NCBI GenBank assembly: GCA_038087875.1 | Contig: CM075995.1 | Coordinates: forward strand, 6,636,001 to 6,700,000 | From: Malacoraja senta | Lineage: Eukaryota | Direction: 5' to 3' | Length of the DNA stretch: 64,000 nt | In this document: positions 1 to 56,944 of the stretch, piece by piece | Numbering within the stretch: the stretch's first letter is position 1 | How the letters are laid out: each line of letters opens with the position of its first letter | The notes under the pieces: model-generated | What the model was told of the DNA's origin: nothing | The model's input: only the letters and a program-made list of their open reading frames with translations | Database searches by the model: none | Program-made: the position numbers and the translations under genes

Positions 1-180
1 AGAAAAGGAATAGATGAGGCTTCGGGTCCAGAGCCTTCTTCACGGGAGGGGAGGGGAACAGATTCCCTCGCCCCTGACTCTCAGTCTGAAGAAGAGTCTC
101 GACATGAAACGTCACCTGTTCCTCTTCTCCAGAGATGCTGCCTGACCCGCTGAGTTGCTCCAGCACTTTGTATCCATCTT
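1..180 (+). mobile_element. Penelope-like terminal unit with degenerate hammerhead core, preceded by an inverted partial copy
   Basis: ctgaagaagagtctcgacatgaaacgtcacc at 86-116 followed by the recurrent gatgctgcctgacccgctgagtt..ctccagca tail; 1-42 is the reverse complement. Confidence 0.7.
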
Positions 181-341
181 ACTGATGTGTATGTTGCATG
201 TGCAATTAAACAAAGTTGCGAACTGGAAAATCGATTAATAAATTAAAAATCTCAAGGAATTGCAAACACTAGTTTACAATAAAAAAGACATAAAGTGCTG
301 GAGTAACTCAGTGCGTCAGGCAGCATTCCTGGAAATCATGA

Positions 342-710
342 ATAGAAACATAGAAACATAGAAAATAGGTGCAGAAGGAGGCCATTCGGCCCTTCGAGCC
401 AGCACCGCCATTTATTGCGATCATGGCTGATCGTCCCCAATCAATAACCCGTGCCTGCCTTCTCCCCATATCCCTTGATTCCACTAGCCCCTAGACCTCT
501 ATCTAACTCTCTCTTAAATCCATCCAGTGATTTGGCCTCCACTGCCCTCTGTGGCAGGGAATTCCACAAATTCACAACTCTCTGGGTGAAAACGCTTTTT
601 CTCACCTCAGTCTTAAATGGCCTCCCCTTTATTCCAAGACTGTGGCCCCTGGTTCTGGACTCGCCCAACATTGGGAAAATTTTTCCTGCATCTAGCTTGT
701 CCAGTCCTTT
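342..710 (-). mobile_element. CR1 LINE 3' fragment nested in a Penelope terminal unit
   Basis: ORF 441-671 gives the CR1 ORF2 C-terminus (RTRGHSL..FTQRVVNLWNSLP) with an (atagaaac)n tail; the host resumes at ggtgacgtttc (711). Confidence 0.9.
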
Positions 711-734
711 GGTGACGTTTCACATCGGAACTCT

Positions 735-955
735 TAGAGTCATGGAGCCAAACATCGTGGAAATGGGCCCTTTGGCCCAACTTGCCCACACCGACCAACA
801 TGCCTCATCTACACGAGTCCCACCTGCCTGCATTTGGCCCACATACCTCTAAAGCCCATATCCATGTACCTGTTTCAATGTTTCTTAAACATTGCAATGG
901 TACCTGCCTCAACTACCTCCACTGGCAGCTTGTTCCATACACCCACTATCCTTAG
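735..955 (-). mobile_element. CR1/HER1-type LINE 3' end (tail type shared with the SINE)
   Basis: Reverse complement of the recurrent ...gttgggccgaagggcctgtttccacgctgtatgactct 3' end. Confidence 0.8.
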
Positions 956-1089
956 TGTAATAAAAGATCGCAATCTGAAACTTAGTTTAGTTTATTGTCA
1001 CGTGTACCGAGTTACGGTGAAGAGCCTGTAGCGAGCTACAGTGAAAAGGTACAGTGAAGAAGGATCCTGACCCGCAACATCACCTATCC

Positions 1090-1628
1090 ATGAATGAATG
1101 AATAAGTTTATTGGCCAAGTATGTTCACATACAAGGAACTTGCCTTGGTGCTCCACTCGCATGTAACAACACGTATATACAGTAAACAATTAAGAATAAA
1201 ACATAAAACATGAAAACATTAAGAATAAAACATTATAGTTTGTGAATGAAATAAAATACCAGAGCAAAAGGAGGCTACAGACTTTTGGTTATTGAGTAGA
1301 GCTACTGCTCGTGGAAGAAAGCTGTTTTTATGTCTGGCTGTGGCGGCTTTGACAGTCCGGAGTTGCCTTCCAGAGGAAAATGATTCAAAGAGTTTGTGGC
1401 CAGGGTGAGAGAGGTCAGAGATGATCTTATCCGCTTGCTTCCTGGCCCTTGCAGTGTACAGTTCGTCAATGGGGGGGGGGGGGGGGGGAGGTTGCAGCCA
1501 ACAACCTTCTCAGCTGATCGGACGATTCGCTGGAGCCTCCGGATGTCATGCTTGGTGGCTGAGCCAAACCAGACCATGATGGAGAAGATGAGGACAGACT
1601 CTACGATGGCCGTATAGAATTGGACCAT
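1090..1628 (-). mobile_element. Rex1/Babar-like LINE 3' fragment with (ATTC)n tail and ATCCATG flanking duplication, nested in a Penelope unit
   Basis: Close match to the 3' end of the 15801-17284 element ([13 protein letters not shown]...); atccatg at 1086-1092 and 1627-1633. Confidence 0.85.
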
Positions 1629-1980
1629 CCATGTACATCAGGGATGCTGCCTGACCCGCTGAATTACTCCAGCACTTTGGGAATCCTTTCTCATCTTCTA
1701 TTCATGTTGCTCTCTTACCCTTTGATACCATTGTAATTCAACATATCTACTTTATTTAAAATTCTCTCTAAATATTACACAGCCTCAGAGGCAAAGACCA
1801 CAGTCCACTGATTCTCCATTACATCCTCCCTCTGCTTGCAGACAGTGTGAAGATTTTATAAGCACACCGTTATTTTGCATGTCAGTGTTCACAGCTGCGT
1901 TACAATCCCTCCAGACTTAACTCCTACACTAAATGAGCCTTCAGCTAAGAACTGCAGATTTTCTCGGCTGCAACACATAT

Positions 1981-2628: not shown

Positions 2629-3069
2629 TTGCTTTATTAAATGTATTTGAACTAATTAAGATTAATAAGAAAACATTAAGAAATAAGAAAACTGAATCAT
2701 CCTACTACACCTCAGCAACGAATTTGATAAGGTTCCACATGGTACACAGCTCTAGAAGGTTAGATCACATGTGATCCAAGGAGAGATAGCTGAGTGGATA
2801 GAGAATTAGCTTCAAATCTTATACACCTCTATATGATCACCCCTCATCCTTGTGCACTCCAAGGAATAAAGTCCTAGTCTGCTCAACCTCTCACTCTAGT
2901 TCAGGCCTCGAGTCCTGAAAAGTGGAAGAAATTAGAGCATAGGATCTGTTAATTATAGAGAATGGCAAGGTGGTAAGTCGGTGGCTAATGGAACTCTTCT
3001 TGTTGCCCGGGGGCGGAACTGATGAGAGAAGAAGTGTGGGAAATGAACCCGACTTGGTTGAGAGCTTCT

Positions 3070-3240
3070 CAGCGGGACAGGCAGCCTCTCTGGAGAGAAG
3101 GAATGGGTGGCGTTTCCCTTCTTCGCCTCGACCCAAAACCCATCATTCCGTCTCTCCAGAGATGCTGCCTGTCCCGCTGAGTTACTCCAGCATTTTGTCT
3201 ACCTTTGGTTTAAACCAGCATCTGCAGTTCCTTCCTACAT
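3070..3240. mobile_element. Fold-back Penelope terminal unit (degenerate)
   Basis: ctcagcgggacaggcagc...ctctggagagaaggaatggg followed by its reverse complement. Confidence 0.7.
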
Positions 3241-3453: not shown

Positions 3454-4185
3454 GGGCGGCACAGTGGTGCAGCAGTAGAGTTGTTGCCTTATGGCAGCAG
3501 ACACCTGGGTTGATTCTTGACTATACGTGTGCTGTCTGTACGGAGTTTGTACGTTCTCCCCACGACCAGCGAGAGAGTGTGAGATTAATCCCTGGTGCTC
3601 AACTGTGGTACAAGGATAAGTAGGAGGAGGCGTCTGAGAGTTGTCGCCTGGCCTCAGCCTCAGTGCGCCAGACTACCCTGGCACCTCCCTTGTCGGTGGG
3701 TTTGATTATGTTGGGGTTGCTGCAGAGTGAGAGGAGGGGAGGGCTGTACGTTCAGAGGGGATGAAGTTTGAGTAGGTCAGAGGAGTGGAAACGTTGAGAC
3801 CGTTGATGTCACGCCGGCAGTTAGAAAATAAAAACGTCTAGAGAGGGTAGAAGGCCATTCGGGGGAGTCCAAGAGGAGGGGGACCTGTGGAGATGGGAGA
3901 CTGGGTGGTGTGGACTCCTTCCCATAGAAAAAGGCACGGAGGCGGAGGCGACAGAAGAAAAGCTCAAGAAGGGTCTCGACCCGAAACGTCACCCATTCCT
4001 TCTCTCCACAGATGCTGCCTGTCCCGCTGAGTTACTCCAGCTTTTTGTGTCTATCCCTGTGACCACGTGGGTTTTCTCCGGATGCTCCGGTTCCCTCCAA
4101 CACTCGCTTCGGTAAAAATTGGAAATTGTCCCTAGTGTTTAGGATAGTGTTAGGTGGGCCGAAGGGCCTGTTTCTGCGCTGGATC
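3454..4185 (+). mobile_element. HE1-like V-SINE split by a Penelope insertion
   Basis: Head 3454-3570; the body resumes at about 4056 (cctgtgaccacgtgggttttctccgg). Confidence 0.8.
3575..4055 (-). mobile_element. Penelope-like retroelement fragment: RT N-terminal region (minus) plus inverted terminal unit (plus)
   Basis: Minus strand FFCRLRLRAFFY... and IIKPTDKGG (3683-3709), the Penelope K-P/A-DKG motif, with frameshifts; followed by gaagggtctcgacccgaaacgtcacc in the opposite orientation. Confidence 0.8.
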
Positions 4186-5596: not shown

Positions 5597-6172
5597 AGTC
5601 AATCATGAGTACGGCTGCTGTCTGTACGGAGTTTGTACGCTCTCCCCCTGACTTGTAAATTGTCCCTAGTGTGTAGGGTAGGACTAGTGTATGGGGATGG
5701 CTAGTCGGCGTGGAGTCGGTGGGCCAAAGGGCCAGTTTCCACGCTGCACCTCCAAAAACAAAAAAAAACTTTAAAGAACATAAATCAGTGTTTGACCGTC
5801 CAATGCAATACTATTGCAAGGAATTGCAATAATTGCTTCTAATTTTTGGTTTAAAAATTGATCTACAATTTCCAAATGCTGCATAAATATCAACCTCTGC
5901 CAGGAATTCTCCTGCAATTTCCTAACATACATGTCAAGCAGACGGAACTGAATTCCAGAGATGTGTGAGTGAGCGTGAGACTAGCTGTAACATGAAGGCA
6001 ACATCTGACCAAATATAGCCTCAAAGCATCAGATGAAAACTTTCCTTCAAAAACATAGAACAGTTTGGAAGATAGACACAAAAAACTGGAGTAACTCAGC
6101 GGGACAGGAATGGGTGACGTTTCGAGGGTCGAGACCCTTCTTCAGACTGAAAGTCACGGGAAAGGGAAACGA

Positions 6173-7693
6173 TAGTGATAATTTTTCAAAACTCTTTAGA
6201 TTCTGGAGTAGTCCCTGAGGATTGGAGGGTAGCAAACGTAACCCCACCTTTTAAGAAGGGAGGGAGAGAGAAAACGGGGAATTACAGACCAGTTAGTCTA
6301 ACATCGGTAGTGGGGAAACTGCTAGAGTCAGTTATTAAAGATGGGATAGCAGCACATTTGGAAAGTGGTGAAATCATTGGACAAAGTCAGCATGGATTTA
6401 CGAAAGGTAAATCGTGTCTGACGAATCTTATAGAATTTTTCGAGGATGTAACTAGTAGAGTGGATAGGGGAGAACCAGTGGATGTTTTGTATCTGGACTT
6501 TCAGAAGACTTTCGACAAGGTACCACATAAGAGATTAGGATACAAACTTAAATCACACGGTATTGGGGGTTCAGTATTGATGTGGATAGAGAACTGGCTG
6601 GCAAACAGGAAGCAAAGAGTAGGAGTAAACGGGTCCTTTTCAGAATGGCAGGCAGTGACTAGTGGGGTACCGCAAGGCTCAGTGCTGGGACCCCAGCTAT
6701 TTACAATATATATTAATGATCTGGATGAAGGAATTGAATGCAACATCTCCAAGTTTGCGGATGACACTAAGCTGGGGGGCAGTGTTAGCTGTGAGGAGGA
6801 TGCTAGGAGACTGCAAGGTGAAACTGGATAGGCTGGGTGAGTGGGCAAATGTTTTGCAGATGCAGTATAATGTGGATAAATGTGAGGTTATCCACTTTGG
6901 TGGCAAAAACGGGAAGGCAGACTATTATCTAAATGGTGGCCGATTAGGAAATGGGGAGATGCAGCGAGACCTGGGTGTCATGGTACACCAGTCATTGAAA
7001 GTAGGCATGCAGGTGCAGCAGGCAGTGAAGAAAGCGAATGGTATGTTGGCCTTCATAGCAAGAGGATTTGAGTATAGGAGCAGGGAGGTTCTACTGCAGT
7101 TGTACAGGGTCTTGGTGAGACCACACCTGGAGTATTGCGTACAGTTTTGGTCTCCAAATCTGAGGAAGGACATTATAGCCATAGAGGGAGTGCAGAGAAG
7201 GTTCACCAGACTGATTCCTGGGATGTCAGGACTTTCATATGAAGAAAGACTGGATAGACTTGGCTTATACTCGCTAGAATTTAGGAGATTGAGAGGGGAT
7301 CTTATAGAAACGTACAAAATTCTTATGGGGTTGGACAGGCTAGATGCAGGAAGATTGTTCCCGATGTTGGGGAAGTCCAGGACAAGGGGTCACAGCTTAA
7401 GGATAAGGGGGAAATCCGTTAAGACCGAGATGAGGAAAAACTTTTTCACACAGAGAGTGGTGAATCTCTGGAACTCTCTGCCACAGAGGGTAGTTGAGGC
7501 CAGTTCATTGGCTATATTTAAGAGGGAGTTAGATGTGGCCCTTGTGGCTAAAGGGATCAGGGGGTATGGAGAGAAGGCAGGTACGGGATACTGAGTTGGA
7601 TGATCAGCCATGATCATAATGAATGGCGGTGCAGGCTCGAAGGGCCGAATGGCCTACTCCTGCACCTATTTTCTATGTATCTATGTATCTATG
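6173..7693 (+). mobile_element. Young 5'-truncated CR1 LINE (ORF2 RT domain to 3' tail) with one frameshift
   Basis: ORFs 6175-6831 and 6662-7594 contain [32 protein letters not shown] and KFADD; extra base near 6821; (tatctatg)n tail; nested in a minus-strand Penelope 3' region (6068-8060). Confidence 0.95.
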
Positions 7694-17830: not shown

Positions 17831-18489
17831 CACACTGCATCACTCTGTGACTCCAAGACTATAATATCCTCGTAAATCTTCTCTGCACCCTTTCCAGCTT
17901 GAAAATGCACCTTAAATCTACTTGCTCTAGTTGTTAATCCCTTTACCCTGTATCTGTACACTGTGGACGGCTCAATTGTAATCATGTATAGTCTTTCCGC
18001 TGACTGGATAGCACGCAACAAAAGCTTTTTACTGTACCTCGGTTATAGGTGACAATAAACTAAACTAAAATAAAAAGGACGTGTGAATGAAATGCCTGAT
18101 GCATTAGTCGCTGCAGAAAGCCCGAGTGTATTGAGAAAGAGCACGGAGTCATCCAGCTCCAGTATTACAAGCAACAAACCTATGCTGGTGGAACTCAGCG
18201 GCTCAAGCACCATTTGTCCAGGAGAAGGAATTGCCAACACTTCAGGTTAAAACCGTGCTTCAGGACTAAATGGCCAGCAAGGTAGCCCGTATAAAGAAGA
18301 GAGGGGAGTGGTGAAACAGGGGCCAGTGGTGGATGCGAAGGGATGAAGGATGATGAGGGCAGATGGAATTAGGTTCGGGTGGATTTGTGAGACAGAGGCA
18401 GGTGGTTAATGGATGGACACAAAAGTGAGTAGTTTTGCAGATAGTGAAGATGGTTCTCAAAAATTGTAGCGGGATCTTGATCGGTTGCG

Positions 18490-18682
18490 CCTATAAGATA
18501 TTGCATATCTTTCATTCATTTGTTCCATATCTCTCTCTATATCACTGTCTATATCTCTTGTTTCCCTCTCCCCTGACTCTCAGTCTGAAGAACGGTCTCG
18601 ACCCGAAACGTCACCTATTCCTTTTCTCCAGAGATGCTGCCTGACCCGCTGAGTTAACTCCAGCTTTTTGTGTCTATCTTTG
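18490..18682 (+). mobile_element. Penelope-like 3' region with hammerhead core
   Basis: ccctgactctcagtCTGAAGAacggtctcgacccGAAACGTCacc at 18585-18615. Confidence 0.75.
18585..18615 (+). ncRNA. Minimal type I hammerhead-ribozyme-like motif (representative plus-strand copy)
   Basis: CUGAAGA, stem II (GGUC/GACC), GAAA, loopless C-G stem III, GUC triplet. Activity untested. Confidence 0.55.
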
Positions 18683-19231
18683 GTGAAATGAGTAGATGGG
18701 TAGAACTGAGGGGGTGAGGGGTGGCGATGGGGAGGTAAAAACTGTAATATTCTGTCAGATGCAGATGACTCAGATTCTGGATAATTCTTTTTTTAAAAGG
18801 CTTAATATTCACAAGTTGGAAATCCTTTTTTGGCATTTGCTATTGGTCTGCTGTTTTCCATCCATTTTGGACAACGGAGTTCATTTGTGGCGACAACACA
18901 ATGAGCTAAATGTTTGCAACGGAGAGGAAGAATGTCTTAGTAGAACGGAGATGAGTAAGCATCAGCTAGGGAGAAAATCTCAGATGACAGAACCATAAAT
19001 GAGCTCATTCACTAAGAGTGGTGACGTATTTCAAATGGAGAAACTTGAGATTACAACAGTTTATGTGCATAGATTGAAGACTCGCATGTCTATTTCACTG
19101 ACGTAGCTTCCTAAATTGGCTCCTGTATGCTGCCAAAATATAGACCCAGATATTTATTCATCCTGGACTTAATACGCTCTTGGCTGACTTCCCATTTTCT
19201 TGAGTTTGTTTAAAACTCTGCTCCCTATGTC

Positions 19232-19363
19232 TTGTGTAGGAAGGGACAGAAGATGCCGGTTTACACCGAAGATAGACACAAAACGCTGGAGTAACTCAGC
19301 GGGTCAGGCAGCATCTCTGGAGAAAAGGAATAGGTGACGTTTCGGGTTGAGACCCTTCTTCAG
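19232..19363 (-). mobile_element. Penelope-like terminal unit with hammerhead core on the host-gene sense strand
   Basis: Reverse complement of 19333-19363 is CTGAAGAAGGGTCTCAACCCGAAACGTCACC. Confidence 0.75.
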
Positions 19364-22239: not shown

Positions 22240-22680
22240 GAGCTTGTTGGTAGGATGGTTCAGTTGCCTGATAGCAGCTGGGAAGAAGCTATCTCTTAAT
22301 CTGGAGGTGTGTGTTTTCACACTTCTGTACCTTTTGCCTGATGGAGAGGGGAGAAGAGTGACCAAAGTGAGACTAATCCATGATTATACTGCTGGCCTTG
22401 CTGAGGCAGCGTGAGGTGCATATAGAGTAAATGGAAAGGAGAAGGGTCTGAAGAAACGTCACCTATTCCTTCGCTCCATAGATGCTGCCCCACCCGCTGA
22501 GTTTCTTCAGCATTTTTGTCTACCTTCGATTTTTCCAGCATCTGCAGTTCTTTCTTAAACAAATGGAAAGGAGGTTGGTTTGCGTGATGGTCTGGGCTGC
22601 GTCCACAATTCCCTGCAATTTCTTGCGGTCTTGGATGGAGCCGTTCCCAAACCATGCTGTGATGCATCCCGATAACATCT
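22240..22680 (-). mobile_element. Rex/Babar-like 3' fragment with a nested Penelope unit (22442-22560, 13-bp TSD)
   Basis: PSPSGKRYRSVKTHTSRLRDSFFP in ORF 22090-22365; aaatggaaaggag at 22429-22441 and 22561-22573. Confidence 0.8.
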
Positions 22681-22895: not shown

Positions 22896-23166
22896 TGTGG
22901 TGGGAGGAAATGCAGATGCTGGTTTAAACCAAAGACATCAAAAGCTGGAGTAACTCAGCGAGTCAGGCAGCATCTCTGGAGAAATGGAACGGGTGACGTT
23001 TGGGGTCGAGACCGAAGCGGAAGAGCCCGAAGAAGATCGAAGGCGGTCTGAAGAAGGGTCTCAACCCGAAACGTCACCTACTCCTTTTCGCCTGACCCTC
23101 TGAGTTACTCCAGCATTTTGTGTCTATCTTCGGTGTAAACCAACATCTGCAGTTCCTTCCTACACA
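22896..23166. mobile_element. Fold-back Penelope terminal unit with hammerhead core (23048-23078)
   Basis: Inverted arms of about 115 bp; ggtCTGAAGAagggtctcaacccGAAACGTCacc with a GGU/ACC stem I. Confidence 0.8.
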
Positions 23167-26340: not shown

Positions 26341-27096
26341 AGGAGATGTCTATGATGCGAAGGGGAGATACCAACTCATCCGCCTGCCTACTGTCCCACC
26401 AGATTCAGTCCCAGCAGTGTAGTGGTGACTTGAAGAGTGGGTCTGGTTTAGATTTGGTTTAGAGACACAGCATTGAAACAGGCCTTTCGGCCCACCGAGT
26501 CCATGCTGACCCGCTGAGTTACTCAAGCCTTTTGTGTCTATCTTCTGACCCACTGAGTTACTTCAGCATTATGTTCAAGAAGGAGCTGCAGATGCTGGAG
26601 AATCGAAGAAGGGTTTCGGCCCGAAACGTTGCCTATTTCCTTTGCTCCATAGATGCTGCCGCACCCGGAGTTTCTCCAGCATTTTGTTGTGTCTATCATC
26701 TGACCGACGAGCACCCGTACACTAGTTTTATCCTACACACTGGGGACAATTTTTATCAAAGCCAATTAACCTACAAACCTGCACTTCTTTGCAATGCGGG
26801 AGGAAACCGGAGCTCCACAGAGAAAACCCACGCAGTCACGGGGAGAACGTACGAACTCTGTACAACACAGCATGTTGTGAATGGAAAATCCTCCCCCCCC
26901 CCCCCATCTCAATAAAAATGTTAATTGAAATCTCAATCTCACACTACCTTTTAGCATTGTGAAGTGTAAACCAAGGAACGATTTGTTTGAAATCCCATCG
27001 GCCCGAAAAGTTAACTCTATTTCTCTGTCCACACATGCTGCCTAACCTGCTCAGTATCGTTTAGGAGTTTCCGTTTCTTAAAATGGTTTGTATTTA

Positions 27097-30671: not shown

Positions 30672-30963
30672 ATTTCTCTAATTTCAAGTAGCCCTTGCAT
30701 TCCCCCTGTCTGCATCCCTCCTCCAACCTAGTCGTACTGCTAGTTTCACTGTTCCTATCCCTTCCTTATCACCTCCTCTACAGCCAACAATGGACCATTG
30801 TGGGTTCCTTGGCCATCAGTGCCGGCTCTTGATTTGTTCTGTTCCTTTTCATACCTCTAGTTTTCCTCTCCCCTGACTCTCAGTCTGAAGAAGGGTGTCG
30901 ATCCAAAACGTCACCTATTCCTTTTCTCCAGAGACTCCAGCTACTCCAGCATTTTGTGTCTAT
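30672..30963 (+). mobile_element. Penelope-like 3'UTR plus degenerate hammerhead unit
   Basis: tttctctaatttcaagtagcccttgc...cagtctgaagaagggtgtcgatccaaaacgtcacc. Confidence 0.7.
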
Positions 30964-31894
30964 TTTAAAGATCTGTTTCATGGCCATTATCGTGAATAAA
31001 ACAATTTCTGAAAATGCTTAGTAAGTGAGGGAACATCTGTGCTGAGAAAAAAAACAGCTGATCGGGGAATAAATCTTTATCTCTAAATATTCCCAGTCAT
31101 CAACCTGAAATGTTATCTCTGACTTGCTGATTATTTCTGTGATTTTCTATTTTTAATTCAGATTTCCAGCACTTCTGCAGAATTTTGCTTTTGTAATTTT
31201 GAGGTGAGAGGGGAAAGATTTCATAGGAACCTGAAGGACATTTTTTTCACAGAGAGGGTGATGGATCAGAGGAGATAGTTGAGGAAGGTACTATAACAAC
31301 ATTTAAACGACGTTTGCTTAGGTATATGAATAGGATGCTTTAGAGATGTTATATGCCAATTATCCCCTTCATCCTGATCTGTACACTGTGGATGGCTCAA
31401 TTGTAATCATCTATACTTTCCGCTGACTGGTTAGCACACAACAAAAGCTTTTCACTGTACCTCGGTACACGTGACAATAAACTGAACTGAGACTAGCGTA
31501 GCTGGGGCATCTTGGTCGTCTTGGACAAGTTGGGCCAAAGGACTTGTTTTTGCACCGTATGACTCTTCGACTTTATTCAGTATCAATAACTTGGGCAAAT
31601 TAGCTTGAAATTAAACGGAAACAAAATGAGACCTTTCATGAGGAGAATTTATGAGAAAGGTAAAAATACAAATGGAATAGTACTCTTTGCTAGAGAACAA
31701 TGGTAACTGTTATACCTAATTATAGAATTTAATTCAAAACCTGACAAGTGACAGGGGAAGAGAATTTTTTTTTAATACAAGAATCAGGAGATTCAGGAAT
31801 ATTAACAATGTGATCCAACAATAAGAACTAAAATTAAACTTAAATGTTCAATGACTACAATTACTTGTTTCTATTTACATTGACTTAACAAGTT

Positions 31895-34059: not shown

Positions 34060-34342
34060 TGCACGGTAGCGCAGCGGTCGAGTTGCTGCCTCACAGCGCC
34101 AGAGACCCGGGTACGATCCTGACTATGGGTGCTGTCTTTATGGAGTTTGTACGTTCTCCCTGTTCTTCCAGGTGCTCCAGTTTCCTCCCACACTCGAAAG
34201 ACATGCAGGTCTGTGGATTCGTTGCATTCTGTTCATTGTAAATAGATCCTAGTGCGTGTCGGGTAGTGTTAGTGTTCAGGGTGATCGCTAGTCAGTGTGG
34301 ACTCGGTGGGCCGAAGAACCTGTTTAGCCCTGTATCTGTAAA
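34060..34342 (+). mobile_element. HE1-like V-SINE
   Basis: Head gcacggtagcgcagcgg, V core, tail. Confidence 0.85.
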
Positions 34343-34629
34343 ATGTGGCCTCATTCTGCAGGCAATGCTTGGAAAGGTCAGTATGGAAATAGGAAAGAGT
34401 GTTAAAGTGGTTAGCAACCAGGAGCTCCAACAAGGCTAGAAGTGTTGAGCAAAACGGTTGCCTAGTCTACGCTCGATCGCGCCAATGTAAAAGGGGACCA
34501 CCTGGGGAGCGACAAATGCAATAATTCCCCGACTCTAATCATTCTGAAGAAGGGTCCTGCCACGCTGAGTTCCTCCAGCACTTCCAGCACCTGCAGCTTC
34601 TTGGGTCTCCAAGAATCTGGGCGATTCCC

Positions 34630-34942: not shown

Positions 34943-36089
34943 TCTCTTCAACATGATGCTACTGGATCTTTAGTAGCTACCCAAGAGAACTTATTTTCAA
35001 CATTTAGCATTCAACCAAGCAAACTCCTCAATGGAGTATTATTGGATCCTTAGCATCAAATCAATGAAGCTCCTCATCAACATAGTGCTACTGGATCTTT
35101 TGCATCTAACGAGGACCACGGTTTCACATTTCATAGAAAGCTAAAATGCAACAAAAGAAACATAAGATTGGGGGACTACAGAAAGATAATACGTAGAGAC
35201 CTTCAACATTTTTTCACACTAAAGATTCCCAAATCTCGGCCTGAAACATGCTCAAATCTCAAGAGTTTCTGAACCCAAACATTCCCATTGAAAGGTTAAC
35301 TGTCATCAAGTGAGTCAAAATTCTTTATCCACAGTTAAATTACTTTGATTCAGGAATATCCAACCGTTTTAAGATGCTTAAGAAAGAACTGCAGATGCTG
35401 GTTTATACCAAAGATAAGACACAAAGTACTGGAGTAACTCACCGGGTCAGGCAGCAAAAAAAAAATAAAAAAATTTGTGATGCTGCCTGACCCGCTGAGT
35501 TCACAGGTTCTAGGAGCAGCATTAGGCCATTCGGCCCATCAAGTCTACTCTGTTATTCAATCATGGCTGCTCTATCTTTCCCTCTCAACCCCATTCTCCT
35601 GCCTTCTCCCCGTAACCCCTGACACCTGTACTAATCAAGAATCTGGCAATCACTCCAGCACTTTGAATCTATCTTTAGTTTTAAGATGCCGCTTCTCCTG
35701 TAGATTATATAATGCTTCCGCTAAAAAGTCTACAGTCTACATTATCACTGAATTAAAAAATAAATTTCCAGCACTCTTTTCCCAATATTCCACAATCCTT
35801 CACCCTGACATTTCTACATCTTTCTCAAAATAAAAAGCCTTACTGAACGAAATAGTACTACTGAAATATTTACTTGCTGACTCTCAAAGTGGATATTTCC
35901 CAACTGCTATGCTAAATAAATCAATTTGTACTGGCAGCGTTAGCAAAGATTTCATGACAGACTTAGCATTGAAAACGGCATCCATTATATAACATACATT
36001 TGTAGGCAAATATTTTGTTTTATCAGCTACACAGAGAAAAAAAAATGAATGCAGCAGACACCTTGAGTCATTTGATCTGATTAAATATG

Positions 36090-36293
36090 ACACAAAATGC
36101 TGGAGTAACTCAGCGGGTCAGGCAGCATCTCTGGAGAAAAGGAATAGGTGACGTTTCGGGTGAGAGTGAAGGGTCTGATGAAATGTCTCGACCTGAAACC
36201 TCACCTATTCCTATTGCCTGACCCGCTGAGTTACTCCAGCATTTTGTGCCTATCTTCGGTGTAAACCTGCATCTGCAGTTCCTTCTTGCACTA
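36090..36293. mobile_element. Fold-back Penelope terminal unit with 10-bp TSD
   Basis: Inverted arms; agggtCTGATGA..GAAAC core at 36175; attaaatatg at 36080-36089 and 36294-36303. Confidence 0.8.
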
Positions 36294-36760: not shown

Positions 36761-37777
36761 ACTAACACCATTGTTTTAAAGGGGTAGGGATTCACAAATG
36801 TAACATTCTGCAATCAAATCAATCAGTTTTTAAAAAAAAATTGCAACTTAATTGTGCGTGTAAATCAAGACCCGTTTATAAATTACATTAGAATAAAATC
36901 TATTCAAATTACTCTATAATTCTTCTCATAGTCCAAATGAAATCAATGATTACACCTCTTTGGCACTGATTTCTGGTGCTCCAGTCCAAATGTTTATACG
37001 TTCATTTGAAAGCAACAGGATCTTGCAACCCAAATATAAATGAATGTAAACCATTGTTACTTATAGACACAAAATACTGGAGTAACTCAGCTGGTCAGGC
37101 AGCATCTCTGGAGAAATGGTATAAGTGATGTTTCAGGTCGGAACCCTTCCTCAGACCCACAACCTCACCTATTTCTTTTCTCCAGAGATGCTGACTGACC
37201 CGCTGAGTTACTCCAGCATTTTGTGTCTATACAGTCATAGACTCTTACAGCGTGGAAACAGGCCCTTCGGCCCAACCTGCCCACACAGACTAACATATCC
37301 CATCTACACTAGTCCCACTGTCTGCATTCAAAACCTGTCCTATCCATGTACCTGTCTTAATATTTCTTAAACGTTGTGATAGTACCAGCCTCAACTGCCA
37401 CCTCCAACAGCTCGTTCCATCAACCCACCACCCTCTGTGTGAAAAGGTTACCCCTCAGGTTCCTATTAAATCTTTTCCCCCTCACCTTAAACCTATGTTC
37501 TCGGGTTCTCGTTTGCCCTTCTCTGTGCAAGAGACTGTAATCATGTATTGCCTTCCCGCTTATCGACACAAAATGCTGGAGTATCTCAGCGGGACAGGCA
37601 GCATCTCTGGGGAGAAGAAATGGGTGATGTTTTGGGTCGAGACCCTTCTTCAGAAGAAGAGAGCATTTTATCGGATGCTTCACAGCTTGGGTTTGGGAAC
37701 AGCTCCATCCAAGACCGCAAGAAATTGCAGAGAATTGTGGACGCAGCCTAGACAATCACACAGACCAACCTCCCTTA

Positions 37778-39431: not shown

Positions 39432-39640
39432 CTGTAGGAAGGAACTGCAGATGTTGGTTTAAACCGAAGATAGACACAAAATGCTGGAGTAACTCAGCAG
39501 GACAGGCAGCATCTCTGGAGAGAAGTAATGGGTGACATTTCAGTTCGAGACTGAAGAACGGTCTGCCAAGAAACGTCACCCATTCCTTCTATCCAGAGAT
39601 GTTGCTTGTCCCGCTGAGTTATTCCAGCATTTTGTGACTA
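39432..39640. mobile_element. Fold-back Penelope terminal unit
   Basis: Inverted arms meeting at about 39545; ctgaagaacggtctgccaagaaacgtcacc. Confidence 0.8.
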
Positions 39641-40769
39641 TAAAAGATAATACAAATATATCTCTAAAAATAAAATATTTTGGTTTTGCAGAACCATATA
39701 AGAATATAAATTCCGTGACAAATGCATATTTGAACATATTTTTAATGCCATATTGTATTAACTATATTATAGTGACTCAATAATATTTGGCAAAGACTTT
39801 TCAACAAGATTGCGGAACATTAATTTATTTTCGATTGATTTACTGGTGTCAAGGCAACAACCTTTCTCGCAAAAGAGATAGTGATCGACTTCAGGAAGCA
39901 AAGCGGTGCACACACCCCAGTTTACATTGATGGCTTCGAAGTAGATGTGTTCCTAGTTCCTCGAAGTAAATATCACCAGCAACTTGTCTAAGCTACCATC
40001 TACCTCATTGGAGACCCTCGGACTCTTTAATTGGACTTTATCTTGCTTTATACGTTATTCCCGTTATCCTGTATCTGTACACTGTGGACAGCTCGATTGT
40101 AATTATGTATAGACTCCACTGACTGGGTAGCATGCAACAAAAATCTTTTCACTGCACATTGGTACATATGACATTAAGCTAAAACTTTCTTGTACTCGTC
40201 TTTTTTTCTTTTATAGTGAGGTGAGGAGATAAGAGGGGTTAGAATACCCTGGAATGGATGATAAGATGAAGCCTCTGTTCCTAGATCTTCAGTTGTACTA
40301 GCCAGGTCTGGTTCTTTTGCGGACACATTTTTGTCATTAAAATGGACCAGATTTGAAGCCTCATAACTCACATGTCATATAGTCATAGAGCTGTACAGCA
40401 CAGAAGCAGGCTCTTCGGCCCATCTTCTCCATGCTGACCATGTTGGCACACTGGGCTACATTTGCCTACATTTGACCCATAGCCATTAAATCATTCCTGT
40501 CCACATACCTACCAATAGTCTTTTAAAAGTCGGAAGTGTATCCACTTCTATAGCTTCCTCTGGCAGCTCATTCCGGATACGGACTACCCTCAAAGTAAAA
40601 ACGTTGCCCCCGAGGTCCCTCTTAAATCTATGCTCTCTAGTTTTTGAATCCTCTCCTCTAACCACTGCCATCTATAACAAACAGTGGCTCAATGGTGACC
40701 CCCTGTGGCTTCCAGTCAAAAACTGGAAATAATTAAATTGTTTCTCTTTGGTATATATTTAGGAGATTT

Positions 40770-40995
40770 AAACCGCAGATGCTGGTTTATACCGGAGATA
40801 GACACAAAAAGCTGGAGTAACAGCCGATTAGGCAGCTTCTCTGGAGAAAATGAATAGGTGACATTTTGGGTCAGGACCCCTCTTCAGACTGAAGAATGGT
40901 TCTAAAGAAGGGTTCTGACCCGAAACGTCACCTGTTCCTTTTCTCCAGAGATGCTGCGTGACCCGCTGAGTTACTCCAGCATTTTGAGTCTATGT
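40770..40995. mobile_element. Fold-back Penelope terminal unit
   Basis: Palindrome centre tcttcag-a-ctgaaga at 40881-40895. Confidence 0.8.
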
Positions 40996-41880: not shown

Positions 41881-42420
41881 CGCTATATTTTGGCGCCATT
41901 TACAAAAGTCTGAAGTCTAGTCTGGGTGCTCAATGTTCACATCAATGTACAGCACAGTTTTGTCACAATGTGGAATTTTTGGGTTCTGTTTCAGATTTCC
42001 AGCTTCTGCAGGATTTTGCTTTTCATGTACCAAAGCGATGTTTGACTAATGGAGGACAGTCTGACTTTGGTGTCGAAGAAAATTACAGTATTTGATAATA
42101 GGACTGAACCTTAAGCTTATAGCTGGACCAGCTAAATTCAGAGGTAGAGAGGCATAGTCAAACGGTGTGGAAACAAGCTCTTCCACCCAACTTGCCCACA
42201 CCAACTGAATCGTCCTGAACGGTTAACTTCTGCTCACTTTTTAACTACTTGCTCCGTTTTTCTTATTGTTCCGAGCAATACATAACACCGATCAACATGC
42301 CCCATCTACACCATTCCCAACAGCCTGCGCTTGGCCCATATCCCTCTAAACCTATCCTATCCATGTACCTGTACAAATGTTTTTTTTAATGTTGTGATAG
42401 TATCCGATAATCTCTATGTC

Positions 42421-42630
42421 ATGTTTAAGAAGGAACTGCAGATGCTGGAACAATCCAAGGTAGACAAAAATGCTGGAGAAACTCAGCGGGTGAGGCAGCA
42501 TCTATGGAGCGAAGAAATGGGTGATGTTTCAGACTGAAGAAGTGTCTAGACCCGAAACGTCACCCAGTCCTTCGCTCCATAGTTGCTGCCTCACCCGCTG
42601 AGTTTCTCCAGCATTTTTGTCTACCTTCTA
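42421..42630. mobile_element. Fold-back Penelope terminal unit (second subfamily)
   Basis: Inverted arms; ctgaagaagtgtctagacccgaaacgtcacc. Confidence 0.8.
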
Positions 42631-43758
42631 TAAGTTATGTCCTCATTTTTCTCTACTTACATTAGAAAGCATTGGAAATATTCAGCCCATCAGCATGAAG
42701 GGTCTCGACCCAAAACATCACCCATTCCTTCTCTCCAGAGAACTGCCTGTCCCGCTGAGTTATTCCAGCATTTTGTATCTATCTTCTGCCTAAATTAAAT
42801 CTCTGCAGCCCTCCACTCTAGCAATCTTACCCCTTTTGATTTATTTTCCCATTCCCGATCCTTTATTCTGCATCTCTAAATATTCCTTGCTTTGCAGTTC
42901 ATTGATTTGAAACATCAGCCATTTCCACGTTCCAAAGATGCTGCTTGCCTTGCTATTTACAACACTATTCTAATTCAATTACAAAACCTGCAGTATTTTG
43001 GGTTATTTTTCTCTCTCATCAAGCAGAAATCCACCTGCGCCAGAGGATTGTAAGGTATTGAAGAATTAACAGCATCACTTGCCAATATTTAGGCAACATC
43101 TGACAAAATTACAACATAAAATGACAGTCGTCATAGATAGGGTAGACAGTCAGAATCTTTTTCCCCCACAAGATAAAAAAAAACAAATACTAGAGGGTAT
43201 AGCCTTAAGGTGAGAGGGGTAAAGTTTACAAGAGACGCACAGGGCAATTTTAATTTTACACAGTGGTGAGGGCCTGTTATATGCTGCCAGGGGAGGTGGT
43301 AAAGGCAGATGTGTTAGTGGCATTTAAGAGGCTTTTAGATTGGCACATGGATATGCAGGGAATGGGTTATGTGGAGGTCGATAAGTGATGGTCTTGGCAT
43401 CATGTTCAGCACAGACATTGTGGGCCGAAGGACCTTTTCTCTGTTGTACTGTTCTAGGTTTTATGTTCGAAAGGTGATCAAGGCAAATCGAGGCACAGAG
43501 GCATTCAAGATGTTTAAAAAGTGCATTGAAAATATATCAGTTGAACAGATTATTAAGACCATAAATTATTTAGGCATATATCGTTAAATATTTGCTAAAA
43601 AGATGCATTAAGATACAAATTTTTGAATAGTTTAGTTCACATTGTGAACAAATTAGAAAATAGTCACAGAACTATGTACCTGCACCCAAAGTCTCCCTGG
43701 TGAGAGGGAAATACCTGATAATTTAAAAAAAAATCACAAGTTTAAATTATCACAAATG

Positions 43759-44069: not shown

Positions 44070-44130
44070 TCAGGCATTTATACAACCTTTAAATTGTTCT
44101 GCTTCATAAATTGATAAAGGTTGTATAAAT

Positions 44131-44280
44131 GTGTAGGAAAGAACTGCAGATGCTAGTTCATACTGACGATAGACACAACATGCTGGAGTAACTCAGCGGG
44201 ACAGGCAGCATCTCTGGAGAGAAGGAATGGATGACGTTTCGGGTAGAGACCCTTCTTCAGTGGGTCCGTCTTGGTGTGGA
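44131..44280 (-). mobile_element. Penelope terminal unit with hammerhead core and perfect 13-bp TSD
   Basis: gttgtataaatgt at 44120-44132 and 44281-44293; minus-strand CTGAAGAAGGGTCTCTACCCGAAACGTC. Confidence 0.85.
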
Positions 44281-49408: not shown

Positions 49409-49431
49409 CTTTCATAGCTTCAATGTTTTTC
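49409..49431 (-). CDS. dtnbp1: 23-nt coding microexon of the dysbindin-like gene (phase 2 to phase 1)
   Basis: Minus strand reads atttattttttccttgatag-type acceptor|GAAAAACATTGAAGCTATGAAAG|gtaggc. It continues the previous exon in frame as (R)KNIEAMK, matching the recalled 23-nt human exon encoding (R)KELETFK(A). Confidence 0.85.
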
Positions 49432-51982: not shown

Positions 51983-52115
51983 CTCTTTTGTTTCTTGTAG
52001 TTCTCCAGCTGCACAGTTTGTAGTTGCTTATAATGCTCCATGTCACATTGTTCACCGATATCTTCCAAATACAGCAAGTGTCCCTCCAGCTCTTCAAAGT
52101 CTTCTTCCAACTGAG
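51983..52115 (-). CDS. dtnbp1: Internal coding exon (133 nt, phase 1 to phase 2) of a dysbindin / dystrobrevin-binding protein 1-like gene, coiled-coil region
   Basis: Minus strand reads gtttttccatctcttgcag|CTCAGTTGG...CAAAAGAG|gtaaag with canonical AG/GT. Translation [45 protein letters not shown] aligns without gaps to recalled human DTNBP1 [44 protein letters not shown], and length and phase match the recalled human exon. Ortholog versus paralog is unresolved. Confidence 0.9.
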
Positions 52116-53275: not shown

Positions 53276-53394
53276 TTAGGCAGTATCTCTGAAGAAAAAG
53301 GATAGGTGATGTTTTGGGTCGGGACCCTTTTTCAGACAGAGGTTCTGAGCTACAACTCAAAATATTTATCACTATTATATACCCTTATATCATT

Positions 53395-53920: not shown

Positions 53921-54469
53921 TATGGTCCCTCAACAACTTCTTACTTCAATTTTGATGTTAGGTTATCATCCAATATGCATGGTAGCCTCATCATTTTCCT
54001 CAGATACCTCAAATACTTCCTACCAGCCTGCTTCCTTCAAGTGCTAGTCCATCCTGATTTCTTCATTGACTCCACGCTAGTGTTCCAAGATGGCGTCACT
54101 TTTCTCTCAAATGGTGATGAACAGCTCACTATGATTAACAGGAATCCACTTCAACTATTTGGTATTAGGTTATGGTGTGATAGTAGTTTCATTAATCCAA
54201 ACAAATTGTTGTTGTCATAAATAAGCGGAAAATCACAGGCAGCCAGAATTTATGAACAGATTATTTCATGCTTGGTAAAGGATATGACTCATGTCCCTTG
54301 CATCCTCAAAATGATCGAATTTAAGTCATAACTAATAGTGAAAAATGATAGGTATGATCAATGCAGTTGTAATAATGTTGGTAAATATCCATAACTACAT
54401 AACACAATTAACTGTTCCCATGGCTGAATGCAGGACAGAGAAGACTGATCTCAGCTTAATCTTATGCTA

Positions 54470-54908
54470 GCCGGAGAACTGGGAAGGGGGAGGGATGGAG
54501 AGAGAGAGAGAGAAAGAGGGAAAGCAAGAGTTACTTGAAGTTAGAGAAGTCAATATTAATACCGCTGGGGTGCAAGCTGCCCAAGTGAAATATGAGATGC
54601 TGTTACTCCAATTTGCGTTGGGCGTCACTCTGACAATGGAGGAGGCCCAGGACCAAAAGGTCAGTGTGGGAATGGGAGGGGGAGTTAAAGTGTTTAGCAA
54701 CCGGGAGATCAGGTAGGTTTAGGCGGACTGAGCGGAGGTGTTCAGCGAAACAATCGCCGAGCCAGCGCTTGGTCTCGCCGATATATAGGAGTCCACACCT
54801 GGAACAGCGGATACAGTAGATGAGGTAGTCAGAGACGGTAAGACTGGTCGGAGAACTGGGAAGGGGGCGGGTTGGAGAGAGAGAGAGAGGGAAAGCAAGG
54901 GTTACTAG
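54470..54908 (-). mobile_element. Penelope-like GIY-YIG endonuclease fragment with a partial tandem 3'UTR repeat
   Basis: LIYCIRCSRCGLLYIGETKRWLGDCFAEHLRSV..VAKHFN..RKLE; cggagaactgggaagggg..gggaaagcaag at 54472 and 54850. Confidence 0.88.
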
Positions 54909-55170
54909 GGTTAATATTTGCAATAATCACCTTGTTTTGGCATCATTTCGCAGTCAAAACTGCAGCTAGCCATAAAGGTCCTTCGCAGTTGTGTTATATA
55001 TTGCGTGCTATGTTTACAAACCTGTTGCGTTGCTGCTACAAGGAAGAATTTCATTGGTCCGTTTCGGGACATACAACAATAAAACACGCTTGACACTCTT
55101 AAGTCTACTTTCTTGGTCAATCGCATGGTCATCGTCACTTGGTCATGGCCATGTCTGTCCAAACACGTAC

Positions 55171-55525
55171 TAAGACTGTGGCCCTGGTTCTGGACTCCCA
55201 ATGTTGGGTGAGTCCAGAACCTGGGGCCACAGTCTTAGAATAAAGGGGAGGCCATTTAAGACTGAGGTGAGAAAAAACTTTCACCCAGAGAGTTGTGAAT
55301 TTGTGGAATTCCCTGCCACAGAGGGCAGTGGAGGCCAAATCACTGGATGGATTTAAGAGAGAGTTAGATAGAGCTCTAGGGGCTAGTGGAGTCAAGGGAT
55401 ATGGGGAGAAGGCAGGCACGGGTTATTGATTGGGGACGATCAGCCATGATCACAACGAATGGCGGTGCTGGCTCGAAGGGCCGAATGGCCTCCTCCTGCA
55501 CCTATTTTCTATGTATTCTATGTAT
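55171..55525 (+). mobile_element. CR1 3' fragment with a short inverted duplication at its 5' end
   Basis: 55171-55197 is the near reverse complement of about 55211-55238. Confidence 0.85.
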
Positions 55526-55790
55526 AGGTTTGTAGGTTAATTGGCTTAGTAAATGTAAAAAATGTCCCTAGTGTGTGTAGGATAGTGTGGGGATTGCTGG
55601 TCGGCGTGGACCGGTGGGTCGAAGGGCTGGTTTCCTCGCTGTATCTCTAAACTAAATTAAACTTATCCCACATTCTCCCTTAGCACCCAAAAATTAAAAG
55701 AAAATGTTTTGAATATACTCAAACAGTTCTCTGAAAAGAAAATAAGTCAGTGAGTTTGCTTCAATTCTTCAGTCAGCAGGCTTCTAGCTC

Positions 55791-56083
55791 AGTTTAGTTT
55801 AGAGATACAGCGTGGGAACAAGCCCTTCAACCCACCAAGTCCACGCCAACCAGCGATCCCCATACACTAGCCCTATCCTACGCACTAGGAACAATTTACA
55901 ATTACCAAAGCCAATTAACCTACAAACCTGCACGTCTTTGGAGTGTGGGAGGAAACCGGAGTGCCCGTGGAAAACCCACGCGGTCACGGGGAGAAACTGC
56001 GTACAGACGGCACCCGTGGTCAGGATCGAACCCGGGTCTCTCGCGCTGTGAGGCAGCAACTCTACCGCTGCGCCACTGTGCTG
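55791..56083 (-). mobile_element. HE1-like V-SINE
   Basis: Reverse complement of the SINE consensus. Confidence 0.9.
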
Positions 56084-56944
56084 CACCTAAACCAGTTCTG
56101 CAACAGGGTCAAGCGAATGAGGTGTTAAACAGTTAAAATAAGTGTGCCAGAAATACCAAGGCCACTACAGCTTTAGATTATCAAATTACCATTTTTCCTT
56201 GCCATCAATCAGAAATATAAACAGCGTTGAAATTATAATCACAATGTTTATATCTGCAAATAGCTAGCAGACAAGAGAACGGGTGGGTTGCAATAAAGGC
56301 ATTGATTGTATGATGTTACTATAATTTTGTTCCATCAAATGTGAGGCAGTCTGCCAGAGAGGCTGCCTGACCCGCTGAGTTACTCCAGCACTCTGTGAAA
56401 CGTCACCCGTCCATGTTCGCCAGAGATGCTGCCTGACCAGCTGAGTTACTCCAGCACTCTGTGACTTAAAAAAAACCTGATAATGGGGAATCTGCATAGT
56501 AGCTGTAGTATTGGTGAATGATATGTGGGGTAAGGATCTCCCAGATGCCACCTATGGTTGAATGCTACCCAAGTTCGCTGGGTCTGTGCAGAAGGAAACA
56601 ATGGCAAATGATGGCCAAGGAAACTCAAATGAATAAAAACGTAACCATTCAACAAGATGTCCTGAGATGAGCCACAGAACCAACGGACTGGCGGGCTGCC
56701 GAGAACAACCCAGCAGGGGCCCGGCAAAAACAAAGGGGGACCCGGCGTAGAAGGGGCTGCCGAGAACAAAGGGGGACCCGGCGTGGGGGGGAGGGGGCCA
56801 TTGAGAACCAAGAGGGAGTTGGTGTGTAGAGGAAATGCAGAGAACATTGCTGATCATGCGCAGCGAACAACAGAATCATATCTAACGATATCTCCTCCAC
56901 ATCATTGTGAAAGGTGTCTCTGTAGTCGCCATGAACAGGCTCAC

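What the first reader, a model, noticed from the sequence alone, without database searches (positions are those of the whole stretch)
86..56465. About 20 dispersed minimal hammerhead-ribozyme cores in Penelope terminal units inside one gene's introns
Seen: the recurrent motif CTGA(A/T)GA-A-GGGTC-TC-GACCC-GAAAC-GTC-ACC. Plus-strand copies lie near 86, 3963, 18585, 23048, 27814, 29227, 30885, 36175, 39551, 40902 and 42534; minus-strand copies near 6115, 19333, 37623, 40857, 44232 and 53306. It has the CUGANGA and GAAA core boxes, stem II, an extra A after A9, a loopless AC/GU stem III, a GUC triplet and a 2-4 bp stem I. At 28727-29357 it is directly attached to GIY-YIG coding sequence, tying it to Penelope-like elements. 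Established: Penelope-like elements carry minimal type I hammerheads with palindromic stem III that cleave as dimers, and an extra A after A9 is tolerated in a viroid hammerhead. Inference: the minus-strand copies are transcribed within the dysbindin pre-mRNA and could pair into dimers and cut the nascent intron.
Basis: partly seen in the sequence, partly recalled or inferred. Interest (0 to 1): 0.7.

Follow-up and report, generated by a model that had tools for sequence, protein, structure and literature searches.

The report
Penelope terminal-repeat relics with minimal hammerheads
The introns of a cartilaginous-fish dysbindin gene hold dozens of short, decaying end-pieces of a Penelope-like jumping gene that carry an already described minimal hammerhead-ribozyme motif, and they are unlikely to cut the host gene's RNA.

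Summary
The motif is real. All 17 listed positions exist. A profile search finds 46 related pieces (27 +, 19 -), 18 with the whole core region. The window lies in a minus-strand dysbindin gene. One copy is joined through a ~230-nt 3' UTR to a GIY-YIG fragment whose closest relatives are skate, ray and shark Penelope-like (Neptune-type) proteins. The motif fits the published min-HHR consensus of Penelope pseudo-LTRs (Cervera and De la Pena 2014). The ~40-nt optional tail and the head-to-head pairs are also known Penelope anatomy. The intron-cutting idea is not supported. The family stem I is only 2 bp. Only three sense copies keep both core boxes, and each has a defective helix. They lie 13 and 25 kb apart. 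The catalytic G12 decays at CpG rate, and sense copies are not depleted. One detail I did not find in print: copies begin just 5' of the CUGA box (18 of 42 here; the top 5' breakpoint in three related sequencing runs), not at the cleavage site (1 of 42). This suggests copying from uncleaved RNA. Verdict: new member of a known kind, low interest.

The parts
51983..52115 (-). dysbindin (DTNBP1) coding exon, 133 nt; sets gene sense = minus strand
   Evidence: 93% identity to full-length dysbindin P0001 (PF04440), AG/GT ends
49409..49431 (-). next dysbindin exon, 23 nt
   Evidence: tblastn E=0.005, AG/GT ends
28715..29357 (+). longest PLE 3' piece: frameshifted GIY-YIG end (stop near 28995), ~230-nt UTR, min-HHR (C3 at 29227; G16.2 changed to A), tail
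54467..54906 (-). GIY-YIG endonuclease fragment with start of UTR, no hammerhead
   Evidence: Pfam GIY-YIG E=0.032, below cut-off; 81% to a little-skate protein and 66-67% to shark/ray RT-EN proteins
34314..34492 (-). decayed GIY-YIG remnant
   Evidence: tblastn
3647..3962 (-). broken N-terminal part of the PLE ORF (DKG motif), joined head-to-head to the unit at 3963
   Evidence: tblastn with P0021 E=4e-12; translation
3963..4055 (+). short unit without tail, first core bases replaced at the junction
1..180 (.). head-to-head pair 43- / 86+; stem II broken in both
3068..3239 (.). head-to-head pair, CUGA box missing from both arms
6068..6180 (-). sense copy, boxes intact, 2-bp stem I, 2-nt insertion at base of stem II, 20-nt deletion downstream
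18184..18263 (-). old divergent sense copy, core broken
18548..18688 (+). copy with 37 nt of UTR; G10.1 changed to C
19233..19363 (-). sense full-length unit with tail; boxes intact, no 1.1-2.1 pair, CUG predicted to be held in a flank hairpin
22440..22562 (+). second-subfamily unit with tail, core partly deleted
22896..23166 (.). head-to-head pair; the + arm (C3 at 23048) is the best-formed hammerhead in the window but is antisense to the gene
26570..26700 (+). second-subfamily unit (GUU triplet) preceded by an inverted tail
27792..27906 (+). unit (C3 at 27814) with short inverted arm centred on TCAG-T-CTGA; C15.2 changed
30674..30966 (+). UTR plus unit (C3 at 30885); G12 changed to A
36089..36291 (.). 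head-to-head pair (C3 of + arm at 36175), core broken
37562..37654 (-). sense unit without tail; G12 and G16.2 changed to A
39433..39641 (.). head-to-head pair (C3 of + arm at 39551), stem II broken
40777..40993 (.). head-to-head pair (40887- with G12 changed; 40902+ with G5 changed)
42414..42628 (.). head-to-head pair, second subfamily (C3 of + arm at 42534)
42697..42794 (+). unit with first box lost
44130..44260 (-). sense full-length unit with tail; boxes intact, no stem I
53278..53341 (-). sense, 3'-cut copy; G8, G12 and G16.2 changed
56354..56466 (+). two head-to-tail partial units without the first box

Best explanation
These are dispersed, decaying ~95-nt and ~130-nt terminal-repeat pieces of a cartilaginous-fish Penelope-like retrotransposon, likely of the Neptune type; they carry the published minimal hammerhead motif, were likely copied from uncleaved element RNA, and likely do not cut the dysbindin pre-mRNA. 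SHOWN: the motif, its link to the GIY-YIG end and UTR, two preferred 3' ends about 40 nt apart (the PLE 'tail'), head-to-head pairs, a preferred 5' end at -6..+5 of C3, and CpG decay of catalytic positions. INFERRED: the element's RT-EN protein nicks genomic DNA and starts reverse transcription inside the RNA at one of the two tail sites (by analogy with the anole PLE, PMC11167929). It copies back through the uncut hammerhead and usually stops or switches template just 5' of the CUGA box, at the micro-palindrome TCAG-T-CTGA. Fold-back or re-priming there gives the head-to-head pairs, and a simple join gives solo units. In the active master element the hammerhead probably cleaves only weakly, as a dimer or with the element's protein. 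After insertion the copies are under no visible constraint.
For: Motif fits the 2014 consensus, and the published table includes 2-bp helix I examples (Culex, D. virilis, Oikopleura). GIY-YIG + UTR + HHR + tail in one piece. The closest EN relatives are skate, shark and ray proteins; 7 of 8 relatives examined have a CX2-5CxxC linker before the EN. 3' ends: 21 of 45 at +80..+100 and 13 of 45 beyond +115; tails of 30-40 nt, inverted 5' copies, solo pLTRs and 5' palindromes are described PLE features. 5' ends: 18 of 42 at -6..+5, 10 at +6..+24, 1 at +25..+31 (cleavage would give +28), 8 further 3', 5 with UTR. In contigs of three related runs the top 5' loose-end site is 29226/29227 (2809, 3844+953 and 556 contigs; flank agreement about 0.35), and depth rises 25-29-fold there; joints show inverted tails and head-to-tail repeats at the same place. 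Decay: G12 changed in 4 of 18 and G16.2 in 5 of 18 whole-core copies, both CpG sites. For the anole PLE, cleavage needs protein, is not needed for insertion, and no reads end at the site.
Against: No cleavage, RNA-end or transcription-start data were obtained: the only raw-read run laid 0 reads and contigs cannot show RNA ends. The reference used lacks one base at -2 and two bases near +82, which by itself makes alignments stop at 29226 and 29312; the window test with other reference copies supports the 5' cluster but is only 42 copies. Only the top 18 loose-end rows were shown (2792 hidden), and contig depth is not copy number. Core-versus-flank conservation is unsettled: 3/180 vs 38/582 (p=0.008) in 18 hand-picked copies, but 11/220 vs 50/665 (p=0.22) in 22 copies. 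Covariation does not exceed shuffles (131/500). The Neptune linker and RT core are not in the window itself.
Confidence: 0.85

Rival explanations
1. One reading: sense copies in the dysbindin pre-mRNA pair as dimers through ACGU and cut the nascent intron.
For: 7 of 18 whole-core copies are sense to the gene; three keep both boxes and ACGU; the family has very many copies in related genomes, so partners in trans are plentiful.
Against: Each of the three has a helix defect; loss of the 1.1-2.1 pair is what the 2014 paper used as its mutant construct (legend S6; gel not seen). Spacing is 13 and 25 kb. Predicted active dimer: -6.1 kcal/mol for the family majority against -20.0 for two free monomers and -26.9 for the dimer MFE. 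A natural comparator with 5-bp stem I also falls short of its monomers (-14.5 vs -20.6), so this test is only relative. Head-to-head pairs fold into long hairpins (-91 to -144 kcal/mol). No sense depletion (p=0.30 and 0.48; low power) and sense cores are not better kept (8/91 vs 5/143 differences). 1 of 9 Xenopus retrozyme dimers cleaved in vitro.
Confidence: 0.04
2. The short unit is its own non-autonomous, SINE- or retrozyme-like element: it is transcribed from an initiator-like TCAGTCT just before the core and mobilised in trans by the PLE protein, instead of being a truncation product of full-length RNA.
For: Sharp 5' end at -6..+5. Unit depth is 3-5 times that of the best-covered EN bins. 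Head-to-tail joints of about unit length exist (61 and 53 contigs). TCAGTCT fits the initiator consensus YYANWYY (recalled). PLE pLTRs contain internal promoters or Inr-like sequences. Animal retrozymes derive from PLE pLTRs.
Against: No start-site data. 5 of 42 copies run on into the UTR, and unit sequence is the same with and without UTR. Many short copies are arms of head-to-head pairs or are joined to ORF pieces, which fold-back or template switching explains without a separate element. No tandem array of whole units lies in the window.
Confidence: 0.3
3. The hammerhead is vestigial in this family: the 2-bp stem I and the competing GAAGAAGG/CCUUCU pairing make it inactive even in the master element, and the sequence persists as part of the promoter or priming signal.
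For: Stem I pairing probability is 0.0 in all 7 monomers folded, and the first box is often paired with the downstream pyrimidines. No covariation above shuffles. HHR-less PLE clades proliferate well.
Against: Non-CpG core positions are at least as well kept as flanks. Stem changes between subfamilies keep pairs (U-A to U-G in stems I and II). Monomer inactivity and protein dependence are normal for this class.
Confidence: 0.25
4. Chance resemblance of a repeat to a hammerhead.
For: Rfam hammerhead models do not hit; stem I is minimal.
Against: All features of the published min-HHR consensus are present, at the published position downstream of a GIY-YIG ORF. An unrelated metagenome contig with the same core has a 5-bp stem I that was not part of the search pattern (L001/L003; the other locus, L002, has none).
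Confidence: 0.03

Closest known systems
Minimal hammerheads (min-HHR) in pseudo-LTRs of metazoan Penelope-like elements (Cervera and De la Pena 2014, PMC4209133)
   Same: CUGANGA + one extra base, G10.1-C11.1, GAAA, loopless palindromic C15.2-G16.2, UH, short helix I; lies 3' of a GIY-YIG ORF; mostly dispersed single motifs, with some close pairs on opposite strands.
   Different: Cartilaginous fish are not among the species in their Table S1 or Fig. S3. Helix II is short (5 bp with a 2-nt loop) and helix I is at the weak end (one G-C and one U-A or U-G pair).
EN+ Penelope-like elements, Neptune clade (Craig et al. 2021, PMC8557442; Arkhipova et al. 2013, PMC3846280)
   Same: C-terminal GIY-YIG, pLTR with HHR, optional 30-40-nt tail, inverted 5' copy, palindrome at the pLTR 5' end, solo pLTRs.
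   Different: Only fragments lie in this window; the Cys linker is seen only in relatives; most copies are just the HHR-to-tail unit.
Anole Poseidon element PAc (Frangieh et al. 2024, PMC11167929)
   Same: Two 3' ends downstream of the HHR defining a tail; no sign that copies start at the cleavage site.
   Different: Different clade; in PAc the ORF begins in stem II and the template RNA tested extends over 100 nt upstream of it, whereas here most copies start within a few bases of the core.
Animal non-LTR retrozymes (PMC7229834; bioRxiv 10.64898/2026.07.22.740005)
   Same: Short non-coding HHR units related to PLE pLTRs; reported in one chondrichthyan genome; some head-to-tail joints of this unit exist in related genomes.
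   Different: Retrozymes are defined as tandem arrays, mostly with canonical HHRs; here the copies are solo or head-to-head with minimal HHRs.

Membership tests
PLE minimal hammerhead (min-HHR) | CUGANGA and GAAA boxes and UH triplet | tested here: met
   Family majority and 7 strict copies; most individual copies are damaged
PLE minimal hammerhead (min-HHR) | Extra nucleotide between A9 and G10.1; G10.1-C11.1 pair | tested here: met
   (outer stem II pair standard in 15 of 17)
PLE minimal hammerhead (min-HHR) | Palindromic 15.2-16.2, no loop III | tested here: met
   C-G in 10 of 17; the rest mostly CpG decay
PLE minimal hammerhead (min-HHR) | Helix I closing the core | tested here: inconclusive
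   Family 2 bp, within the published range, but 70.6% of cells paired and not predicted in monomer folds
PLE minimal hammerhead (min-HHR) | Located in the terminal repeat of a PLE | tested here: met
   28715-29357; 3' repeat only, no full element in the window
PLE minimal hammerhead (min-HHR) | Covariation or better conservation of core than flank | tested here: inconclusive
   p=0.008 (18 copies) or 0.22 (22 copies); covariation reached by 131 of 500 shuffles
PLE minimal hammerhead (min-HHR) | Self-cleavage as dimer or with protein | not testable with these tools
   No assay; no raw RNA reads
EN+ Penelope-like element | C-terminal GIY-YIG endonuclease | tested here: met
   Pfam E=0.032, below cut-off; 67% identity to the end of RT-EN proteins
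EN+ Penelope-like element | Tail and inverted 5' copy | tested here: met
Neptune clade | CX2-5CxxC linker between RT and EN | tested here: inconclusive
   Present in 7 of 8 relatives examined; that part is absent from the window; Nematis also has such a linker
Neptune clade | RT phylogeny | not tested
   No PLE RT core in the window
Non-LTR retrozyme | Tandem array of whole HHR units | tested here: not met
   None in the window; head-to-tail joints exist elsewhere in related genomes
Non-LTR retrozyme | Circular RNA product | not testable with these tools
   No raw RNA reads
Rfam hammerhead families | Gathering score | tested here: not met

The most novel reading that the evidence does not exclude
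The HHR-to-tail unit is a SINE-like, non-autonomous Penelope derivative whose RNA starts at an initiator-like TCAGT directly in front of the CUGA box and is copied uncut, so that in this family the hammerhead acts as the 5' boundary and template-switch signal of transposition instead of as a cutter. The very many insertion junctions in skate-like genomes would then be a natural record of where PLE reverse transcription ends, and would make the open question of what Penelope hammerheads do directly testable.
Probability: 0.25. Interest if true: 0.5.

Novelty: new member of a known kind. Interest (0 to 1): 0.2.

Why it matters
As a class the motif has been known since 2014, so the catch is correct but not surprising. 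Its value is as material: the role of hammerheads in Penelope transposition is still unclear (PMC8557442 says so), and this family offers many insertion junctions. Their 5' ends sit just before the core and not at the cut site, which agrees with the in vitro result that uncut RNA is the template. If intronic copies did cut pre-mRNA, it would matter for many genes of these fish, but the data here give no sign of that.

Tried and rejected
No whole genome is held for this window, so no genome-wide strand or conservation test was possible. A fuzzy regex scan found only 3 copies because of how it matched, and was replaced by nhmmer. Rfam gave no hammerhead. An exact motif scan found 0 stretches in viral contigs and 3 in metagenome contigs (two are the same sequence): unrelated flanks, no help for this family. 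The first dimer comparator had a wrong offset and was redone. The first core-versus-flank count (p=0.005) had a misaligned copy and was redone; I report both sets. The apparent 3' end at 29312 and the '87-nt' repeat reflect a 2-nt deletion in the reference copy; the true short end is near +85..+96. Literature searches: 'hammerhead ribozyme + shark + Penelope' gave 1 paper, where 'shark' refers only to the shape; 'Penelope + self-priming + inverted + hammerhead' gave 0; 'Penelope + skate + transposable element + Chondrichthyes' gave 3 listings, not opened; the intron-cleavage search was seen as a listing only. Three look-ups of earlier scan notes by words or sequence and one by place returned nothing. 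Rejected: tandem retrozyme array; domesticated intronic ribozyme of the amniote type (canonical, single-copy; recalled); chance match.

Full report
OBSERVATION. A strict descriptor (CUGANGA, stem II of at least 3 bp, GAAA) finds 8 sites, 7 of this family and one unrelated at 11827. A profile built from those 7 finds 53 hits at E<=1 and 46 at E<=1e-3 (27 +, 19 -), against one E=0.8 hit in the reversed window. 35 of 46 reach the core region; 18 carry the whole C3-H17 stretch. Of 20 copies scored feature by feature, 2 pass core + palindrome + stem II>=3 + stem I>=2. Rfam does not recognise the motif.

HOST GENE. A 133-nt exon at 51983-52115 and a 23-nt exon at 49409-49431, both on the minus strand with AG/GT ends, match dysbindin (93% to P0001, which carries PF04440). 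No other exon was found. Minus-strand copies are therefore sense to the pre-mRNA. That the whole window below 49409 is intron is inferred from the missing next exon. The rest of the window is LINE-type RT fragments and other short repeats.

THE ELEMENT. At 28715-29357 a frameshifted GIY-YIG end stops near 28995 and is followed by about 230 nt of pyrimidine-rich UTR, the hammerhead (C3 at 29227) and about 100 nt more. A second EN fragment at 54467-54906 is 81% identical to a little-skate protein and 66-67% to whale-shark and ray RT-EN proteins (22 hits among 52 candidates). 7 of 8 relatives examined have the CX2-5CxxC linker that PMC8557442 gives for Neptune and Nematis. A broken N-terminal ORF piece lies head-to-head with the unit at 3963. 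So the host is a cartilaginous fish and the element is an EN+ PLE, probably Neptune-type.

THE MOTIF. It matches the consensus in Fig. S3 of PMC4209133 point by point. The family helix I is U2.1-A1.1 plus G2.2-C1.2; a second subfamily has U-G at the first pair and a GUU triplet. Two-pair helices occur in the published table, but those are mostly G-C pairs. On 17 aligned copies 85% of cells pair and slid controls fall to 9-42%, but covariation is not above shuffles (131 of 500). Non-CpG core positions differ from the majority in 3/180 cells against 38/582 in the flank for the 18 whole-core copies (p=0.008), and 11/220 against 50/665 when 4 more doubtful copies are added (p=0.22). Three of those four are cut at C3 or U4, which inflates the core count. 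This leans towards constraint in the master elements but does not prove it. The CpG positions decay freely: G12 in 4 of 18, G16.2 in 5 of 18.

ENDS OF THE COPIES. Against a natural copy with intact upstream sequence, 5' ends fall at -6..+5 of C3 in 18 of 42 hits, +6..+24 in 10, +25..+31 in 1, further 3' in 8, and in the UTR in 5. Cleavage would leave +28. Against a copy with a full tail, 3' ends fall at +80..+100 in 21 of 45 and beyond +115 in 13, with 4 between and 7 shorter. About ten head-to-head pairs exist. Often one arm starts at the core and the other 8-20 nt in, and usually only one arm has the tail. Laying contigs of three related runs on 28660-29440 gave 183,133, 227,157 and 18,204 records; the fourth run, raw reads, gave none. 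The top 5' loose-end site is 29226/29227 in all three, with heterogeneous flanks; 3' sites are 29312 and 29355/29356; joints show inverted tails at the unit start and head-to-tail repeats. Caveats: the reference lacks one base at -2 and two near +82, which favours stops at 29226 and 29312; only the best-supported rows were shown; contig depth is not copy number.

MECHANISM. Tails, inverted 5' copies, 5' palindromes, Inr-like sequence and solo pLTRs are described for PLEs, with self-priming proposed for the inverted junctions (PMC3846280, PMC8557442). For the anole element, RT starts at two internal sites that define the tail, the hammerhead cleaves only with the protein, cleavage is not needed for insertion, and no RNA reads end at the site (PMC11167929). 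The window fits this. I infer priming at one of two tail sites, copying through an uncut hammerhead, and a stop or switch at TCAG-T-CTGA. Whether that point is the RNA's 5' end (TCAGTCT fits a recalled initiator consensus; D. virilis Penelope has an internal promoter) or only a preferred switch site is open.

INTRON CUTTING. Sense copies with both boxes and ACGU are 6145-, 19363- and 44260-. The last two lack the 1.1-2.1 pair; the first has an insertion at the base of stem II. They are 13 and 25 kb apart. Helix I has pairing probability 0.0 in all 7 monomers folded. The modelled active dimer is about 14 kcal/mol worse than free monomers for the family majority, against about 6 for a comparator with a 5-bp stem I. 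Head-to-head pairs form long hairpins. Sense copies are not depleted (19 of 46, p=0.30; 7 of 18, p=0.48; low power) and their cores are not better kept. Published min-HHR dimers cleave weakly even when adjacent, and 8 of 9 Xenopus retrozyme dimers did not cleave. Protein-assisted cleavage of an occasional copy is not excluded.

NOVELTY. The class is known. Cartilaginous fish are absent from the 2014 lists I saw, but a 2026 preprint reports HHR retrozymes in one chondrichthyan. Earlier notes of this scan describe the same kind in other cartilaginous-fish genomes (unchecked AI notes, not independent support). I found no paper on the 5'-end cluster in 7 searches, none of which was aimed narrowly at it, and the library lacks most subscription papers.

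WHAT I READ. PMC4209133: main text parts 1-3 of 4 and supplement file 2 parts 1-2 of 3 (file 1 could not be searched; figures not seen). PMC11167929: parts 1-2 of 4. bioRxiv 10.64898/2026.07.22.740005: parts 1 and 3 of 5 plus passages; its supplements, which name the chondrichthyan families, were not seen and may bear on novelty. PMC8557442, PMC3846280, PMC2377424, PMC6155905, PMC7229834: passages only.

VERDICT. Observation confirmed with corrections; PLE min-HHR reading supported; intron cleavage not supported (about 4%). New member of a known kind; interest 0.2.

Noticed in passing
window 3647-3965: An N-terminal PLE ORF piece is joined head-to-head to the unit at 3963 through a near match between ORF sequence and the start of the core, which looks like a microhomology template switch.
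   Followed up: partly
e.g. window 18565-18584 and 18617-18631 (+): The unit is bracketed by two splice-acceptor-like stretches (pyrimidine tract + CAG): one ends 1 nt before the CUGA box, the other lies about 18 nt after the cleavage site. Sense copies could offer cryptic acceptors. In D. virilis an intron ends at helix I (PMC4209133).
   Followed up: no
window 26570-26700, 45408-45474, 46979-47058: Inverted tails joined directly to the start or to the 3' part of a unit; the same joints are common in related genomes.
   Followed up: partly
window 54826-54906 (-): A copy of the start of the 3' UTR sits upstream of the EN fragment, a partial-tandem arrangement.
   Followed up: no
window 15786-17096 (+) and 49676-51303 (+), 6151-7594 (+): Long, nearly open LINE-type RT fragments of two families (RVT_1 with ALKBH8_N-like end; RVT_1), antisense to the gene.
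   Followed up: partly
window 58419-58618: Assembly gap of 200 N, next to a purine-rich tract and TA/TG microsatellites (58777-60158).
   Followed up: no
L001/L003 401-429 (+), L002 118-145 (-): Metagenome contigs with the same min-HHR core and unrelated flanks; L001/L003 have a 5-bp stem I, L002 has none.
   Followed up: partly
window 19363-19380 (-): The sense unit inserted into another common repeat so that its first bases complete a predicted 6-bp hairpin that hides C3-G5.
   Followed up: partly
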